64,000 nucleotides of DNA from Promethearchaeia archaeon (GTDB lineage Archaea > Asgardarchaeota > Lokiarchaeia > Sigyniarchaeales > SOKP01): NCBI GenBank assembly GCA_029856045.1, contig JAHQWG010000016.1:128001-192000 (forward strand). The letters are read 5' to 3'. Shown in pieces: positions 5,427 to 51,934 of this stretch. The number at the start of each line of letters is the position of its first letter. Positions within the stretch are counted from its first letter, which is position 1. Made by a program: the position numbers and the translations under genes. The notes beneath the pieces are model-generated. The model was not told where the DNA came from and ran no database searches. It saw only the letters and a program-made list of their open reading frames with translations.

Positions 5427-6596
5427 ATGGCATCTCAAATAAAACCTATCTATTTTGGCCCTAAAGCTATATTTGATCCATATTTTATACCTCCTGAATT
5501 ATTGCATAGAAAATCTGAGGAAGAAATGCTTAGTACAATTTTAAAAGACTCATTTTTAGATAACTTTGGGGCTAATATTTTAATTAAAGGAATAAAAGGG
5601 GTTGGGAAAACTGTTCTAATAAATAAAGCGATATCAGATTTAAAAATAAAAAGTAAAGATAACGGCAAAGATATTTTAAAATTATTTGTAAATTGTGAAG
5701 GGAAAAATCTAGAAGAAATAATAATTTCATTGATTTTAAACTTAGAAAAGACAGAAGAAATGAAATTAGATATTAATTTCTTGGTAAATTTGACTATTCC
5801 AAGACTATGGAATATTTTAAAACTTGCTTGTAAAAAATGTAATACTTTTAAATTTCTTGTATTTCATAATATAGAGGAAATAGAGCCCAAGATTTTTAAA
5901 AAATTTTTAAGATTTGGTAAAGAGATGAAAATTTCAATAATATCAACAATTAACAAGATTTCCATCAATCCAGAATTAAACTTTCTTTCTGAATTTGATG
6001 TTAAGAAAAGGATTGATTTATATAATCCATCACAATTATCTGATATAATTAAACAAAGATTTGCTTTAACTTACCCCTTTAATATCGATGATTCTCTTTC
6101 AAATTTAATAGTTGATTTAGTTGCGGAATATGATTACTTAAGACCAGGCAAATGCATAGAATTGATGAGAGAAATTTACCCTATCATTAAAAAAAAAAAT
6201 GGATCAATTACATCTGATCACCTACGAGAACAATGTTTACTGCAATTTGATTCTTTTTCCTTAGACGAATTTGAGATAATTTCATATCTAACGGAAGCAG
6301 ATATTTTAATAGACATTTTTCTGGATAATTTGGCAAATTACTTTTCAAATGAATATAATTATTACATTGATTTAGTTAAATTAAAAGAATTATATGAAAT
6401 ATCATGTGAGACATTAGAATTTGAAAAAAAATCTAGTGAATTTAATCGAATACTCCAAAAGCTATTAGATTTAGAAATTTTAAAAGAATCAAAATTTGCC
6501 AGAAAATACCCCAATAATATAAGATTTTTTTATTCAATAATGCAGACATCTCAATTAAAAACAATGATTGATGTTATATTTGGAGAAATAAAATAA
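5427..6596 (+). CDS. Divergent Orc1/Cdc6-family AAA+ protein
   Basis: F-x-P-P-E-L-L-H-R, Walker A GIKGVGKT, VNC, C-terminal winged helix; Walker B degenerate (FHNIEE). Confidence 0.75.
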   Translation: MASQIKPIYFGPKAIFDPYFIPPELLHRKSEEEMLSTILKDSFLDNFGANILIKGIKGVGKTVLINKAISDLKIKSKDNGKDILKLFVNCEGKNLEEIIISLILNLEKTEEMKLDINFLVNLTIPRLWNILKLACKKCNTFKFLVFHNIEEIEPKIFKKFLRFGKEMKISIISTINKISINPELNFLSEFDVKKRIDLYNPSQLSDIIKQRFALTYPFNIDDSLSNLIVDLVAEYDYLRPGKCIELMREIYPIIKKKNGSITSDHLREQCLLQFDSFSLDEFEIISYLTEADILIDIFLDNLANYFSNEYNYYIDLVKLKELYEISCETLEFEKKSSEFNRILQKLLDLEILKESKFARKYPNNIRFFYSIMQTSQLKTMIDVIFGEIK

Positions 6597-18986: not shown

Positions 18987-20789
18987 TTATGAGACATAAT
19001 AAAATTCATTTATTTTTTTCTGATATTCATCTTTTGTACTTCCTGGTTTATTAACTCTAGGTCGTTTTGTCAAATTATCTCGTCTAAATGTAATATCCAT
19101 AATTTTAAGAAATTTATTAAAACCATCTCTTAAATCCAATGGAACTGAAGCAACTCCTTTTATTCCTGGAATCCCCTCAAAAATCAAAATTGAATCTGCA
19201 ATGAAATCTTGTGTAACTATATCATGTTCGACAACAAAAGCTGCTTTTTTCAGCTCTTCAATAACTTTTCTAATTAATTGAGCTACATTTAATCTCATTT
19301 CAACATCTAAAAAAGCACAGGGTTCGTCTATTAAAAAAAGATCTGCTTCTTCAGCCAAACATTTTGCTATTTCAACACGTTGTAACTCACCTCCACTTAA
19401 TTCAGTAATTTTTCTTTGTTCAATATTTCGTAAATTGAGATTATTGATTAAACGTTTTATTATAGGTGGAGATAAATGAGGTTTTGATATAATATTAGAT
19501 ATTATATTTTTAACCGTTAGATCTTGTTCTGGTTTAATATATTGTGGTTTTATTGATATTAAAAGTTCGTTAGATTCTTTTTGAGAAATATTTTTTTTAA
19601 AATTCCCTTGATTGGCTATAAGATTAATGAAAGTAGTCTTCCCAATTGCGTTTGGCCCCAAAATCCCAATAACCTCACCTAAATGTATCTCACTACCCGA
19701 TACCTTTAAATGAAATTCGCCCATGTGTGTTTCTGAATCATTATACGAAAAAAGAACTTCTCCTTTATCAAAGGAAGAAATTTGTGGAGGACGGACATGG
19801 AAAATTATCGGTAATTCTCTAATACGCATATTTTCATCTTTGATATATCCTTGTAGATAAATGTTTATTCCATTACGTACACTTTGAGGGTGTGAAACTA
19901 TTCCATACACTCCAGGTTTTCCGTAAAAAATTGAAACGTAGTCACTTAAATAATCTAAGATAGCTAGGTCATGCTCAACAACTACGATTGTTTTTCCATT
20001 TTCTGCTAAAGATCTAATAATTCTTGCTACTTTTATTCGTTCACTTACGTCTAAATATGATGTTGGCTCGTCTATTAAATAAACATCTCCATCTCTTAAA
20101 AATGCAACTGCTATTAATATTCTCTGTAATTCTCCTCCGGACAAAACGGAAATTTCCCTATCTAAAATTTTTCCTAAATTTAATTTTTTAATAATTTCAT
20201 CTAAATAATTACTATTACTTATTCCTTTCAAGATATCTTCTACTTTTCCTGAAATCCTTTTGGGAATATCAGTAATATTTTGGGGTTTATGAATTATCTT
20301 AATATTTTTTTCCCTTAAATCAGTAAAATATCCTTGTAATTCTGAACCTTTAAACTGATTTATAATTTTATTCCAATCTGGAGCATCATTATCGAATTTG
20401 CCTAAATTAAGAATTATTTCTCCAGCTAAAATTTTTAACATAGTACTTTTTCCACAACCATTTGGTCCAATTAAACCCAAAACACTTCCCTTCTTAGGTA
20501 TTGCCATACGAAAAAGAGCAAAACCATCTGTAGCATACCTATAAGATATTTCATTTTTCAATGGATCAGGTAAATTTATTATGCTGATACTATTAAACGG
20601 ACACTTTTTAACACAAATTCCGCATCCTGAGCACAAATTTTCAAAAATCTCAATTTTTTTCTCATTTAATAGAATTATTGTTTTAACACCCGTTCTCACC
20701 ATAGGACAATATTTTATACAGGGTTTTTGACCAAATGGACTACATTTATGTGGTTTGCATGTCTCTCTATTAAGAACGGCTATTCGCAT
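18987..20789 (-). CDS. rli1: Ribosome recycling ATPase ABCE1/Rli1
   Basis: N-terminal Fe-S domain (CSGCGICVKKCP), two NBDs with LSGGELQR, C-terminal RPRVNK. Confidence 0.97.
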   Translation of the reverse strand: MRIAVLNRETCKPHKCSPFGQKPCIKYCPMVRTGVKTIILLNEKKIEIFENLCSGCGICVKKCPFNSISIINLPDPLKNEISYRYATDGFALFRMAIPKKGSVLGLIGPNGCGKSTMLKILAGEIILNLGKFDNDAPDWNKIINQFKGSELQGYFTDLREKNIKIIHKPQNITDIPKRISGKVEDILKGISNSNYLDEIIKKLNLGKILDREISVLSGGELQRILIAVAFLRDGDVYLIDEPTSYLDVSERIKVARIIRSLAENGKTIVVVEHDLAILDYLSDYVSIFYGKPGVYGIVSHPQSVRNGINIYLQGYIKDENMRIRELPIIFHVRPPQISSFDKGEVLFSYNDSETHMGEFHLKVSGSEIHLGEVIGILGPNAIGKTTFINLIANQGNFKKNISQKESNELLISIKPQYIKPEQDLTVKNIISNIISKPHLSPPIIKRLINNLNLRNIEQRKITELSGGELQRVEIAKCLAEEADLFLIDEPCAFLDVEMRLNVAQLIRKVIEELKKAAFVVEHDIVTQDFIADSILIFEGIPGIKGVASVPLDLRDGFNKFLKIMDITFRRDNLTKRPRVNKPGSTKDEYQKKINEFYYVS

Positions 20790-30759: not shown

Positions 30760-31101
30760 TGATGACAAATGAAGAGCATACCCACCCTTTAGTTTTATTT
30801 TTTGTCACCAAAAAAAAATTCGGATATTAAACTAATTCGGCATACCTAAAGTTCAAATCCAAAATTTCATCACTTTTATTTTGCCTTTCTCCAAGATTTT
30901 ATATCGTTTCAACATATCCCTAATAATAAATTTTCCTTGAATTTCTAAACAATCTCAAATCATTAAAATCAAATTATAGGGCTGTTCCGTTTCTATAATT
31001 TATAGATGATTTCTCATCATTTAATTAATCTTGTTTGGATATGAGGGGTGAAGTTCCTCATTGTAGATACAACGTTAATCCGAGCTCTTCATTTGTCATC
31101 A
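30760..31101 (-). ncRNA. rnpB: RNase P RNA
   Basis: 18-bp perfect terminal P1 stem; P4 halves GAGGAACTTCACCC and AACTAAAGGGTGGG; conserved TGAGAA, AGAAAC and TGAAAC segments. Confidence 0.85.
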
Positions 31102-35910: not shown

Positions 35911-36227
35911 TTAGAGTGATCTGATCCTTGAAAATAAAAAAGAAATTTTTATAGCATATTTCCATTCTTACCACCCGTCACCAATAAGCGTAAATTTTTT
36001 GATTTACGACTGCTCCATCCCTGACCTGGTCGGGTTCATCATCAATTGAGTATATTTCTCCTACAAGAAATATCTCAAAAATAACTTACCTAATTGGGCG
36101 AATGGATCATTGAAACATTAAATATGTATAAAAATCATTTTTAATTCCTCAGATCATTTCTCAATCCGTTATAGAGCATTTACGGTCCACCCAGTATAGG
36201 GTTTCAGGAATTGCCCTAGATTCCCAC
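35895..36227 (-). ncRNA. ffs: SRP RNA (7S)
   Basis: Helix-8 signature GAACCCGACCAGGTCAGGGATGGAGCAG; 5' end GTGGGAATCTAGG pairs with 3' CCAGGGATCCCAT; TATA-like element upstream. Confidence 0.85.
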
Positions 36228-36335
36228 GATCAATAATAATATTTTTATTAACAAATATAAAGCTTATTATAAATGTAAAAAGGTTTTAAATAATTTATTT
36301 TGAAAAATCCAATGATAATCAATTAGAAAATGTAA

Positions 36336-48240: not shown

Positions 48241-49738
<1,498 letters not shown>

Positions 49739-49865: not shown

Positions 49866-50003
49866 GGGCCTGTAGATCAGTGGAAGATCATTGGGTTCGG
49901 TCTCGTATCCAAACTTAGGCTTGACTTGCACACCAGCTTGATTGATTTTCATTCAAGAGGTCAAGAGTTCAAGAGGTCACGGGTTCAATTCCCGTCAGGT
50001 CCA
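49866..50003 (+). tRNA. tRNA-Ala(UGC) with two introns: 25/26 (49890-49918) and 37/38 (49931-49967)
   Basis: Acceptor GGGCCTG/CAGGTCC, D stem GATC/GATC, anticodon stem CTTGA/TCAAG around TGC, strict BHB at 37/38. Confidence 0.9.
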
Positions 50004-50683: not shown

Positions 50684-51934
50684 TCATTTTGCTGAAAAAA
50701 TTTTTATCACATCATTATCTTTTAAAATATAATTCTCTCCTAATTTCATTTTCGATTTTACCTCCATCCCGTAAATAAAATGTTTTGCTAAGTCAGTGTG
50801 AATTTTTTCTCTAATAAATTCCCGTAATTTTGTTCCTTTTCTAATTAAAAAAACATCAGGGAGTACATTTCCATCTTTATCTGTTAAAGTATTTAAATTT
50901 GCAACAGGATATACAGTAATTTGGTCTAATAAAGAATATACTGCGTAATTTAATGTTTTTTGAACTCCTGTACCTCCAATTCCTCGTAATAATTTTTCTC
51001 TAACCTTTTCTAGAGCTTCCAATTCATTTTTTTTTAGATTCTCTTTTTTTATTATAATAAAATCAGTATCACCAGGCATATATTTGATAATACCTTCCTT
51101 ACTATATTCCCTAAGAATGAATTCTGCTAAGGCACTGCATGGAATAATTTTCTTCTTATATTTTTTCTTTAATTCATCCAGTTTTCTCATACCAATCTCT
51201 TTATCAATTTTATTAGCAATTATTATTATCGGTTTAGAGATTTCTCTTAGGTTTTTTGAAAAAAAATTTAGTTCTGCTTTATCCCATTTTGATATTGGCT
51301 TTCCATCTAAATTGGATTTTTCAATTGATTTCTCTATATCGTCCTTTTTAATTGATAATCCTGATAATCTTTGATATAATGCTTCAATAAGCTCATTCCC
51401 CCCCTTAATAACTCTCATTGAAAATTTTCTCCAATCCTCTCTTTCAATAATTCCTTTAAACCATAAATTTATTTCATCTTCTAAAAACATTATATCTTCG
51501 TAAGGATCATGGGACCCTGACTCTACTGTATTTCCATTTGCATCCAAAGAACCTGTAATATCAATAATATGTAATAGTACATCTGCTCGGCTTAAATCAC
51601 TCAAAAATCTATTCCCAAGCCCCTTCCCCTCATGAGCTCCCGGTACTAAACCAGCTACATCTAATAATTGAATAGGAATAAAACGAATTTGTTCTATACA
51701 TTTTGAATTCTTAGGATTATCCTTAACATTCAATTCTTTACATACGCACGGTTTTTTAACATATGCTATTCCTTTATTGGGATCGATAGTTGTAAAGGGA
51801 TAATCTCCAACTTTAGCATGAGTTAAACAAGCACTATTTAAGAATGTACTTTTACCGGAAGAAGGTTTAGGGTTAAATTAGAATCTTTATATATAAATAA
51901 TCTAAAATAATTTCCCTACCACACCGATTAGCAC
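50684..51934 (-). CDS. ychF: YchF/Ola1-family (archaeal Ygr210-like) Obg NTPase; exons 51934-51912 and 51866-50684 give 401 aa
   Basis: Joined product MLIGVVGKPSSGKSTFLN...YPFTTIDPN...CVC...DVAGLVPGAHEGKGLGNRFL...ANKID...TGS-like tail. Confidence 0.9.
51867..51911 (-). other. 45-nt BHB-type intron in ychF mRNA
   Basis: Splits the first Lys codon of the P-loop (GK|PSSGKS); in-frame TAG; central helix AGGG/CCCT with AAA bulges and an internal hairpin. Confidence 0.8.

What the first reader, a model, noticed from the sequence alone, without database searches (positions are those of the whole stretch)
51867..51911. Probable BHB intron inside a protein-coding gene (ychF) of an Asgard archaeon
Seen: the listed YchF ORF lacks its N-terminus. 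Upstream on the minus strand, GTG CTA ATC GGT GTG GTA GGG AA (MLIGVVG-K) is separated from A CCT TCT TCC GGT AAA AGT (K-PSSGKS) by 45 nt containing an in-frame TAG. The junction folds with a 4-bp central helix AGGG/CCCT, an AAA bulge on each strand, an inner helix TTA/TAA extended by TTAGA/TCTAA, and an imperfect outer helix. Cutting after the second base of each bulge (the tRNA-endonuclease rule) restores an intact P-loop GKPSSGKS and a 401-aa protein. Established: this is the substrate of archaeal EndA/RtcB; the main precedent for an archaeal mRNA intron is crenarchaeal cbf5. Inference: mRNA splicing by the tRNA machinery in an Asgard lineage, possibly a regulatory switch on a translation GTPase (loosely like eukaryotic HAC1/XBP1 non-spliceosomal splicing). 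The relaxed BHBs in all five tRNAs here suggest the endonuclease would accept this substrate.
Basis: partly seen in the sequence, partly recalled or inferred. Interest (0 to 1): 0.95.

Follow-up and report, generated by a model that had tools for sequence, protein, structure and literature searches.

The report
tRNA-type intron splitting an Asgard GTPase gene
A 45-base insert that breaks the nucleotide-binding motif of an essential-looking GTPase gene in a Lokiarchaeon-like (Asgard) archaeon is almost certainly a tiny intron cut out of the mRNA by the tRNA-splicing enzymes, and related genera carry a second, independent intron of the same kind only 7 bases away, which makes protein-gene introns in the closest prokaryotic relatives of eukaryotes look recurrent rather than a one-off.

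Summary
Observation confirmed. On the minus strand, exon 1 (51934-51912, MLIGVVGK), a 45-nt insert (51911-51867, in-frame TAG) and exon 2 (51866-50684) give a 401-aa YchF-related GTPase with an intact GKPSSGKS P-loop once the insert is removed. [quoted passage not shown]

All five genomes of the genus carry the insert at the same codon. Lengths are 45, 45, 47, 47 and 44 nt, so it cannot be translated through. Exon 1 changes only synonymously and the inner helix shows compensatory changes. The 33 other genomes read at nucleotide level lack this insert; about 105 of the 115 class genomes with a match are uninterrupted here.

New here: five genomes of two other genera carry a different 31-32-nt textbook hBHBh' intron 7 nt downstream in the same P-loop, with covariation and frozen synonymous sites.

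The genome encodes a heteromeric EndA (alpha with the broad-specificity loop, non-catalytic beta) and RtcB. No RNA evidence could be obtained. The regulatory-switch idea has no support.

The scan had already flagged this kind of intron in other genes of this genome (mevalonate kinase, B12-mutase, dnaG); I re-verified two. New member of a known kind (crenarchaeal cbf5).

The parts
51912..51934 (-). Exon 1: GTG start plus 7 codons and 2 nt (MLIGVVG + AA of the Lys codon)
   Evidence: Conserved in all 5 genus members. The 4 substitutions in codons 2-8 are all synonymous. The start codon is GTG in four genomes and TTG in G003.
51867..51911 (-). Intron A, 45 nt, with in-frame TAG and further stops. 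Excision after the 2nd base of each bulge restores GGG AAA CCU.
   Evidence: Orthologous inserts are 45, 45, 47, 47 and 44 nt.
50684..51866 (-). Exon 2: last base of the Lys codon plus 393 codons and TGA. It encodes the YchF-related GTPase body (MMR_HSR1, YGR210-like G4, TGS).
   Evidence: NF007171 scores 488.7 bits against a cut-off of 387 and matches profile positions 10-396 only.
51914..51917 (-). Central helix, 5' strand AGGG (exonic, codons Val-Gly)
   Evidence: pairs 22-25 with 69-72 are invariant and paired in 5/5 genomes.
51869..51872 (-). Central helix, 3' strand CCCU (intronic)
51911..51913 (-). 5' bulge AAA; predicted cut between 51912 and 51911
   Evidence: a 3-nt bulge in the MFE folds of all five orthologs.
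51866..51868 (-). 3' bulge AA(A); predicted cut between 51867 and 51866. The third A can pair with U51918.
51901..51910 (-). Inner (intron) helix, 5' strand UUA-uu-UUAGA
   Evidence: In G003 it reads CUAAUUUAGG, which pairs fully.
51873..51882 (-). Inner (intron) helix, 3' strand UCUAA-uu-UAA
   Evidence: Compensatory changes U:A to C:G at pair 29:68 and at pair 33:64.
51918..51920 (-). Weak outer (exon-exon) helix, 5' strand GGU, pairing with ACC at 51866-51864
   Evidence: Broken in G001 (AGU) and extended to 7 bp in G003 through synonymous changes.
51924..51928 (-). Distal exon-exon helix AUCGG, pairing with CCGGU at 51858-51854
   Evidence: 5/5 paired, with one C:G to U:G change.

Best explanation
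The 45 nt at 51911-51867 (minus strand) are an archaeal bulge-helix-bulge intron in the pre-mRNA of the single-copy YchF-related (YGR210-like) Obg-family GTPase gene.

Proposed mechanism: exon-1 bases AGGG pair with intronic CCCU to form the 4-bp central helix. An AAA bulge lies 3' of each strand. An AU-rich intron hairpin forms the inner helix, and a short offset exon-exon helix closes the outside. The heteromeric (alpha-beta)2 splicing endonuclease EndA cuts after the second base of each bulge. RtcB joins the 2',3'-cyclic phosphate and 5'-OH ends, giving ...GGG AAA CCU... and a 401-aa protein with an intact Walker A motif GKPSSGKS. The intron is probably released as a 45-nt circle.

Unspliced mRNA can only yield a 10-residue peptide, so splicing is obligatory for function.

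The intron was gained once in the ancestor of this genus. A separate intron of the same kind (31-32 nt, textbook hBHBh') sits 7 nt downstream in some members of two other genera of the family.

Shown: the sequence anatomy, conservation, covariation and presence of the enzymes. Inferred: the actual cleavage and ligation, the circle, and the timing relative to translation.
For: 1. Anatomy and register. The MFE folds of all five orthologs give the same architecture independently. The BHB cut rule restores the P-loop exactly. The chance rate of such a motif at a fixed boundary is 0.18%.

2. Comparative.
- The insert is at the same codon in 5/5 genomes of the genus, down to 73% protein identity, with lengths 45/45/47/47/44.
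- Exon 2 is open over 393 codons in all five.
- Exon 1 shows 4 synonymous and 0 non-synonymous changes.
- 93.6% of pair cells are paired in register against 26-56% when slid, with two compensatory pairs in the inner helix.
- The 33 other genomes read at nucleotide level lack this insert, and about 105 of 115 class members with a match are uninterrupted at this site.
- Only one copy of the gene was found in this genome.

3. Independent second case in the same gene. Intron B in G062, G060, G009, G059 and G160 is a full hBHBh'.
- 97.1% of cells are paired, with 4 compensatory pairs including one in the central helix.
- Synonymous divergence in the helix codons is 0.21 against 0.45 for the rest of the gene, while the same codons score 0.58 in intron-less relatives.

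4. Machinery.
- There are two EndA paralogs.
- One aligns gap-free to the A. pernix catalytic alpha subunit 3p1z_B, keeps Tyr/His/Lys, and keeps loop residues K55/R57, equivalent to K44/R46. Those residues confer broad BHB/BHL specificity (PMC3241643).
- The other paralog lacks the catalytic His.
- There is one RtcB.
- Asgard EndA is reported as (alpha-beta)2 with the L1 loop (PMC5829648).

5. Same genome, other genes. My classifier confirms a 32-nt hBHBh' intron in the B12-mutase small subunit and a 32-nt HBh' intron with AAA/AAA bulges in dnaG.
Against:
- The outer helix is weak and offset. With strict 3-nt bulges the motif is only HBh', and the MFE draws a 2-nt 3' bulge.
- The folding z-score is unimpressive (-1.5 to -2.4).
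- Covariation rests on five related sequences, four of them near-identical (61/500 shuffles reach the observed values).
- No excess synonymous constraint is seen on the exon bases next to intron A (0.200 against 0.203).
- Identical AAA triplets at both ends are also what a ribosome-hopping model would need.
Confidence: 0.85

Rival explanations
1. Translational bypassing (ribosome hopping, as in phage T4 gene 60 or yeast mitochondrial byps). Peptidyl-tRNA-Lys takes off at AAA (51913-51911), slides over 45 nt and lands on the identical AAA (51868-51866). The RNA is never cut.
For: The codons flanking the gap are identical (AAA/AAA) in all five genomes, and a hairpin begins right after the take-off codon. 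The gap of 44-47 nt is in the known size range for bypass (own knowledge).
Against: - Take-off would occur at codon 8, too early for the nascent-peptide signal that gene 60 bypassing requires (own knowledge).
- The first stop is three codons after the take-off codon, not adjacent to it.
- The same model fails for the sister cases. For intron B in G009 the flanking codons are AGU and GGU. For dnaG they are CAA and UAA. The BHB cut rule is exact in every case.
- The 4-bp central helix with 3-nt bulges has no role in hopping.
Confidence: 0.04
2. Decaying or inactive gene: the insert is a disabling insertion and the locus is a pseudogene, or makes only an N-terminally truncated, P-loop-less protein.
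For: The ORF as it stands lacks its start and the first Gly of the Walker A motif.
Against: - Exon 2 is open for 393 codons in five species down to 73% identity, in a 29.5% GC genome where stops arise easily.
- Exon 1 is retained with only synonymous changes.
- It is the only copy of a near-universal GTPase found in a 100%-complete genome.
- There is no in-frame start between the intron and TTG 51733.
- The helices are maintained by compensatory changes.
Confidence: 0.03
3. The insert is excised at the RNA level, but by something other than EndA/RtcB: an unknown endonuclease or ligase, or a self-processing element.
For: The 3' bulge and outer helix are non-canonical, and no cleavage assay exists.
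Against: - The central helix, 5' bulge and inner helix are exactly the EndA recognition geometry.
- The alpha subunit carries the loop shown to allow HBh'/BHL substrates.
- 45 nt is far too small for group I or group II introns.
- No Rfam family matches the site.
Confidence: 0.06
4. Assembly or sequencing artefact.
For: None beyond the fact that these are MAGs.
Against: The same insert is in five independently assembled genomes and one JGI metagenome contig, with lineage-specific differences.
Confidence: 0.01

Closest known systems
BHB intron in cbf5 (pseudouridine synthase) pre-mRNA of Crenarchaeota (Watanabe 2002; Yoshinari 2006; Yokobori 2009, PMC2738675)
   Same: Both are short introns in a protein-coding gene, bounded by a bulge-helix-bulge motif. 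Both are removed by the tRNA splicing endonuclease of a lineage with heteromeric EndA, and both show lineage-specific gain and loss.
   Different: The gene differs (YchF-related GTPase), and cbf5 itself is uninterrupted in this genome. The phylum differs (Promethearchaeota, i.e. Asgard). The intron lies only 23 nt into the ORF, inside the Walker A codons. The motif is relaxed (HBh'). Splicing is not shown experimentally here.
Non-canonical (HBh'/hBH/BHL) tRNA introns cleaved by (alpha-beta)2 EndA with the Crenarchaea-specific/L1 loop (PMC3241643; PMC5829648), and the heavily interrupted tRNA genes of Asgard archaea (bioRxiv 10.64898/2026.10.13.758758)
   Same: The recognition geometry and the predicted enzyme are the same. 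The genome's alpha subunit keeps the loop Lys/Arg, and its tRNA genes are often interrupted: 14 of 25 Rfam hits exceed 80 nt.
   Different: The host RNA is an mRNA, so excision must restore a reading frame. No tRNA-like context is present.
Other candidate protein-gene BHB introns in this same genome (mevalonate kinase, B12-mutase small subunit, dnaG), flagged earlier in this scan
   Same: They have the same size class (31-32 nt) and the same cut rule, and all lie near the 5' end inside conserved binding motifs. The dnaG intron also has AAA/AAA bulges and a G/C-rich central helix.
   Different: Intron A is longer (45 nt), purely AU-rich, and lacks the CCACUUCGG hairpin shared by the dnaG and MVK introns. 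It has no paralog in the genome.
HAC1/XBP1 unconventional cytoplasmic mRNA splicing (Ire1 + tRNA ligase/RtcB)
   Same: Both are non-spliceosomal excision of a short intron from an mRNA, with ligation by the tRNA ligase (RtcB in metazoa).
   Different: The endonuclease there is Ire1, which recognises twin 7-nt loops rather than a BHB, and that system is stress-regulated. Nothing here indicates regulation. This is an analogy only.
Programmed translational bypassing (T4 gene 60)
   Same: Both have a gap of about 45-50 nt with identical flanking codons and a hairpin at the take-off site.
   Different: See the bypassing rival above: there is no room for a nascent-peptide signal, the stop is not adjacent, and the model fails on the sister introns.

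Membership tests
Archaeal BHB (EndA-dependent) intron | 4-bp central helix with one bulge 3' of it on each strand | tested here: met
   AGGG/CCCU (3 G:C + 1 A:U) with AAA after each strand. It is paired in 5/5 orthologs.
Archaeal BHB (EndA-dependent) intron | Both bulges exactly 3 nt, closed by flanking helices h (exon-exon) and h' (intron) of at least 2 bp (strict hBHBh') | tested here: not met
   h' is present (3 bp + 5 bp, and 8-12 bp in G003). h is absent in strict register (U.C next to the bulge). The MFE instead draws a 2-nt 3' bulge plus GGU/ACC. It therefore falls in the accepted relaxed class HBh', not strict hBHBh'. Intron B in other genera does meet the strict form.
Archaeal BHB (EndA-dependent) intron | Cutting after the 2nd bulge base on both strands yields a functional mature RNA | tested here: met
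   Excision restores GKPSSGKS and a 401-aa ORF. Exon 1 supplies the profile positions missing from exon 2.
Archaeal BHB (EndA-dependent) intron | Host encodes a splicing endonuclease able to take relaxed motifs, and an RtcB ligase | tested here: met
   EndA alpha has Tyr/His/Lys and loop residues K55/R57. EndA beta lacks the His. RtcB scores 578 bits.
Archaeal BHB (EndA-dependent) intron | Structure conserved with covariation while loop sequence and length drift | tested here: met
   Lengths are 44-47 nt, the loop has diverged, 2 pairs are compensatory, and 93.6% of cells are paired against at most 56% when slid. The sample is small (5 sequences).
Archaeal BHB (EndA-dependent) intron | Spliced junction and/or circular intron observed in RNA; cleavage by EndA in vitro | not testable with these tools
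None of the single-contig (closed) relatives I read at nucleotide level carries the intron.
YchF-related putative GTPase (NCBIfam NF007171; Pfam YGR210-like_G4 + MMR_HSR1 + TGS) | Score above the curated cut-off over the full length | tested here: met
   488.7 bits against 387, covering profile positions 10-396 of 397.
YchF proper (TIGR00092, redox-regulated ATPase YchF) | Score above the curated cut-off | tested here: not met
76.7 bits against 279.2.
Programmed translational bypass (gene 60 type) | Matched take-off and landing codons, stop adjacent to take-off, upstream nascent-peptide signal | tested here: not met
   The codons match (AAA/AAA). However, the stop is 3 codons later, only 8 residues have been made at take-off, and the sister introns lack matched codons.

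The most novel reading that the evidence does not exclude
The first ten codons of this GTPase gene, the Walker A segment, are a recurrent landing site for mobile BHB introns in Lokiarchaeia-like archaea.

Two unrelated introns sit 7 nt apart in different genera. One has a patchy distribution that needs losses, transfer or re-insertion. Several other genes of the same genome (dnaG, B12-mutase, mevalonate kinase) are hit near their 5' ends in conserved motifs.

This would imply an active pathway that moves tRNA-type introns into mRNAs, for example reverse splicing by EndA/RtcB followed by reverse transcription, or recombination with spliced or unspliced copies. It would operate in the closest prokaryotic relatives of eukaryotes. 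It might also carry a functional bias for 5'-proximal sites, where an unspliced message aborts after a few codons.
Probability: 0.25. Interest if true: 0.9.

Novelty: new member of a known kind. Interest (0 to 1): 0.77.

Why it matters
In the papers I searched, cbf5 of Crenarchaeota is the only protein-coding gene documented to carry an EndA-type intron. I found no paper reporting one in Asgard archaea.

This case is a well-supported one in a Promethearchaeota genus, in a housekeeping GTPase. A second, independent textbook BHB intron lies 7 nt away in related genera, and I re-verified further cases in the same genome. Three consequences follow.

1. **Annotation.** Gene callers truncate or miss such genes. 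This one is listed as a 349-aa ORF that lacks its P-loop.
2. **Scope.** tRNA-type splicing of mRNAs may be a regular feature of this lineage rather than a curiosity.
3. **Testability.** Intron gain and loss in mRNAs of the sister group of eukaryotes becomes directly testable, with defined junction sequences and recombinant enzymes.

It does not bear on spliceosomal intron origins by homology. It does show that interrupted protein genes and an RNA-level repair system coexist in these organisms.

Tried and rejected
- **Genome-wide de novo census.** I scanned for BHB motifs whose excision joins two open frames and got 18,901 hits. Chance motifs spanning ordinary gene-to-gene gaps dominate. It is unusable without homology and was abandoned.
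- **The 138-nt tRNA at 49866-50003.** I removed BHB-bounded candidates and ran ARAGORN. This gave 1,077 tRNA-like solutions of many identities, so it was uninformative.
- **Paralogs of intron A.** blastn-short found none in the genome, so there is no clue to its source.
- **Synonymous-site constraint around intron A.** There was no signal (0.200 against 0.203), because four of the five sequences are near-identical. The same test was positive for intron B.
- **Metagenome scan for more intron-A orthologs.** It returned one hit that is identical to G004 in the intron, so no power was added.
- **Phylum-wide search.** Only the best 150 of about 330 matches were listed. Absence of further interrupted copies is shown for the listed rows only.
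- **Other explanations considered and rejected.** An intein, readthrough or frameshift is excluded by multiple stops and lengths of 44/45/47 nt. Group I and group II introns are excluded by size. An alternative downstream start is excluded because none lies in frame before codon 52 of exon 2.
Full report
**1. What is in the sequence.**

On the minus strand, a GTG at 51934 opens GTG CTA ATC GGT GTG GTA GGG AA. Forty-five bases follow (51911-51867) that carry an in-frame TAG and further stops. The text then resumes with A CCT TCT TCC GGT AAA AGT and runs open to TGA at 50686-50684.

Deleting exactly those 45 bases yields a 401-codon frame beginning MLIGVVGKPSSGKSTFLN, which is an intact Walker A motif.

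As it stands, the ORF list offers only a 349-aa fragment starting at TTG 51733. The exon-2 frame has a TAA four codons before the junction and no start codon.

The product is the 'YchF-related putative GTPase' subfamily (NF007171, 488.7 bits against a cut-off of 387). It has MMR_HSR1, YGR210-like G4 and TGS domains. It does not reach the cut-off of YchF proper, TIGR00092. The NF007171 match covers profile positions 10-396, so the nine missing positions are what exon 1 would supply.

**2. The fold.**

- a central helix AGGG/CCCU;
- an AAA bulge after the 5' strand;
- an inner helix UUA/UAA continued by UUAGA/UCUAA;
- on the 3' side, AA (or AAA) followed by a short GGU/ACC helix and a distal AUCGG/CCGGU helix.

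The geometry is the correct one for archaeal EndA. The 5' strand of the central helix is exonic and the 3' strand intronic, each bulge lies 3' of its strand, and the cut falls after the second bulge base.

With strict 3-nt bulges the outer helix begins with a U.C mismatch, so the motif is class HBh' rather than full hBHBh'.

The folding z-score is modest (-1.65). Against that, the boundary is fixed independently by protein homology. A motif with 4/4 central pairs and an inner helix of at least 3 bp occurs at only 0.18% of random fixed boundaries in this 29.5% GC genome, or 1.2% with +-3 nt slack.

**3. Comparative evidence for intron A.**

The window lies in a 3.34-Mb, 55-contig genome. Same-genus MAGs are titled 'Promethearchaeota archaeon', i.e. 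Asgard.

- All four other species-level genomes of the genus, with 73-93% protein identity, carry an insert at the same codon. Lengths are 45, 47, 47 and 44 nt, so three of the five inserts are not a multiple of three.
- Exon 2 is open over 393 codons in all five.
- Exon 1 is kept, with four substitutions in codons 2-8, all synonymous. The start codon is GTG in four genomes and TTG in the most distant one.
- Each ortholog folds on its own into the same architecture.
- On the alignment, 93.6% of pair cells are standard pairs in register, against 26-56% when partners are slid. Two inner-helix pairs change on both sides: U:A to C:G next to the bulge, and two U.U mismatches become A:U/U:A in G003.
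- Five related sequences are too few for the shuffling control to be decisive (61/500).
- The 33 other genomes read at nucleotide level lack this insert. About 105 of the 115 class members with a match are uninterrupted at this site.
- On a gene tree the intron-A bearers are one clade (100/99), which fits a single gain.
- Only one copy of the gene was found in this 100%-complete genome.

A pseudogene, an assembly error, readthrough, a frameshift or an alternative start cannot account for this pattern.

**4. A second intron in the same P-loop.**

I searched an uninterrupted ortholog against the class. Five further genomes matched only from residue 6-11 onward: G062, G060, G009 and G059 of genus g6, and G160 of genus g3.

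They carry a different insert of 31-32 nt, 7 nt downstream of the intron-A site. It splits the first Ser codon...GGA AAG CCA A | GU UCU GGC AAA....

This intron B is a textbook hBHBh' in every one of the five genomes:
- an exon-exon outer helix of 7-9 bp (GUCGGAA/UUCUGGC);
- a central helix AGCC/GGYU;
- two 3-nt bulges;
- an inner hairpin of 8-10 bp.

The cut rule restores GxVGKPSSGKSTFLN.

Pairing is 97.1% in register against 31-54% when slid. Four pairs are compensatory. One lies in the central helix, where the exonic Lys codon AAG/AAA co-varies with intronic GGCU/GGUU.

The codons that form the helices are frozen at synonymous sites in the bearers (0.21 against 0.45 for the rest of the gene; 6 of 269 windows are as low). 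The same codons are hyper-variable in intron-less relatives (0.58 against 0.42).

The distribution of intron B is patchy. Within g6, a nested clade (G020 + G061) lacks it. In g3, G160 has it and its sister G006 does not. This requires losses, transfer or repeated insertion, as was argued for cbf5 (PMC2738675).

Introns A and B share no sequence similarity and sit in different registers, so I take them as independent gains.

**5. Machinery.**

- The genome has two EndA paralogs of about 200 aa.
- One aligns without gaps to the catalytic alpha subunit of Aeropyrum pernix EndA (3p1z_B, E = 1.8e-38). It keeps the Tyr/His/Lys triad. It also keeps K55 and R57 at the positions of K44 and R46 in the Crenarchaea-specific loop. 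That loop was shown by mutagenesis and loop grafting to give broad BHB/BHL specificity (PMC3241643).
- The other paralog has Pro in place of the catalytic His, so it is a structural beta subunit.
- This matches the report that Asgard archaea have (alpha-beta)2 EndA with the L1 loop (PMC5829648).
- One RtcB is present at 578 bits.
- Many tRNA genes here are interrupted: 14 of 25 Rfam tRNA hits exceed 80 nt, and fewer are detected than a full set needs. This agrees with a recent preprint on Asgard tRNA introns.

**6. Other split protein genes in this genome.**

Earlier notes of this scan named mevalonate kinase, a B12-mutase small subunit and dnaG. I located each by family search and applied the same classifier.

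| Gene | Insert | Class | Helices and bulges | Spliced junction |
|---|---|---|---|---|
| B12-mutase small subunit | 32 nt | full hBHBh' | outer GCCCG/CGGGC, central GCAU/AUGU, inner 10 bp | restores KPGIDGHWRGG |
| dnaG | 32 nt | HBh' | central GGGC/GCCU, AAA/AAA bulges | restores GAIFGQ\|TEGLL |
| mevalonate kinase | 31 nt | relaxed | only 3/4 central pairs | between GKTILFGE and HFVVYG |

In dnaG, and in intron B of G009, the codons flanking the gap do not match. This rules out ribosome hopping as the general mechanism.

cbf5, the classical host of an archaeal mRNA intron, is uninterrupted here.

**7. Mechanism and what remains inferred.**

The best-supported reading has five steps.
1. The gene is transcribed.
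2. The BHB forms between exon 1 and the 3' end of the intron.
3. The heteromeric EndA cuts after A51912 and A51867.
4. RtcB ligates the exons.
5. The intron is released, probably as a circle.

Because both bulges are AAA, the mature sequence GGG AAA CCU is the same wherever within the bulges the symmetric cuts fall.

Unspliced message can give only a 10-residue peptide, so splicing is obligatory for function.

Cleavage, ligation, circle formation and any coupling to translation are inferences. No RNA data could be obtained.

**8. Novelty.**

Full-text searches found cbf5 as the established case and no report of protein-gene BHB introns in Asgard archaea. The library is incomplete, so this is not proof of absence.

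The mechanism is a known kind, so this is a new member: a new gene in a new phylum. Three features are of interest:
- an exon 1 of only 23 nt;
- insertion inside the Walker A codons;
- an independent second intron 7 nt away in sister genera.

The scan had already reported this kind of intron in another gene of the same genome (e1-2110050). This report adds intron B, the covariation and synonymous-site tests, and the EndA subunit analysis.

Noticed in passing
L068:174-265(+), L069:194-285(+), L070:157-247(-), L071:126-216(-), L072:152-242(+) (genomes G062, G060, G009, G160, G059): A second, unrelated 31-32-nt textbook hBHBh' intron lies 7 nt downstream of the intron-A site in the same P-loop codons. 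It is present in some members of two other genera and absent from their closest relatives (G020, G061, G006).
   Followed up: yes
G000 contigs C32 about 5677-5716(+), C43 about 19930-19975(-), C36 about 116790-116850(+): Three more protein genes of this genome are split by 31-32-nt inserts: the B12-mutase small subunit (full hBHBh'), dnaG (HBh', AAA/AAA bulges) and mevalonate kinase (relaxed, 3/4 central pairs). The dnaG and MVK introns share a CCACTTCGG hairpin core that intron A lacks.
   Followed up: partly
ychF, mutase, MVK and dnaG loci as above: All the protein-gene introns seen so far lie near the 5' end of the ORF (from about codon 8 to about codon 40) and inside conserved nucleotide- or cofactor-binding motifs. 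This may be ascertainment bias, since a missing N-terminus is what readers notice, or it may be a real insertion or retention bias.
   Followed up: no
window 49866-50003 (+): A 138-nt tRNA hit (Rfam 44.4 bits) lies immediately downstream of the 16S rRNA (48242-49736) and next to the GTPase gene. It must hold about 60 nt of intervening sequence. ARAGORN misses it, and I could not resolve its intron(s) unambiguously.
   Followed up: partly
window 35914-36235 (-) and 30767-31094 (-): SRP RNA (77.2 bits against a gathering score of 96.5) and RNase P RNA (70.4 against 84) match full-length but fall below Rfam gathering scores. They are divergent AU-rich versions that default annotation would miss.
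   Followed up: no
window 48242-49736 (+): The 16S rRNA gene appears to stand without an adjacent 23S in the window, since only an SSU hit was found. It is 50% GC in a 29.5% GC genome.
   Followed up: no
G000 C27:269132-269473 (+): cbf5 (TruB_N) is a single uninterrupted 330-aa frame. The classical crenarchaeal mRNA intron is not present in this Asgard genome.
   Followed up: yes
class-level search: About 40 genomes of the same family, several more than 94% complete (G008, G021, G078, G079), gave no match to this otherwise near-universal GTPase at E<=1e-60. This could reflect contig breaks, or genes interrupted more heavily than the search tolerates.
   Followed up: no
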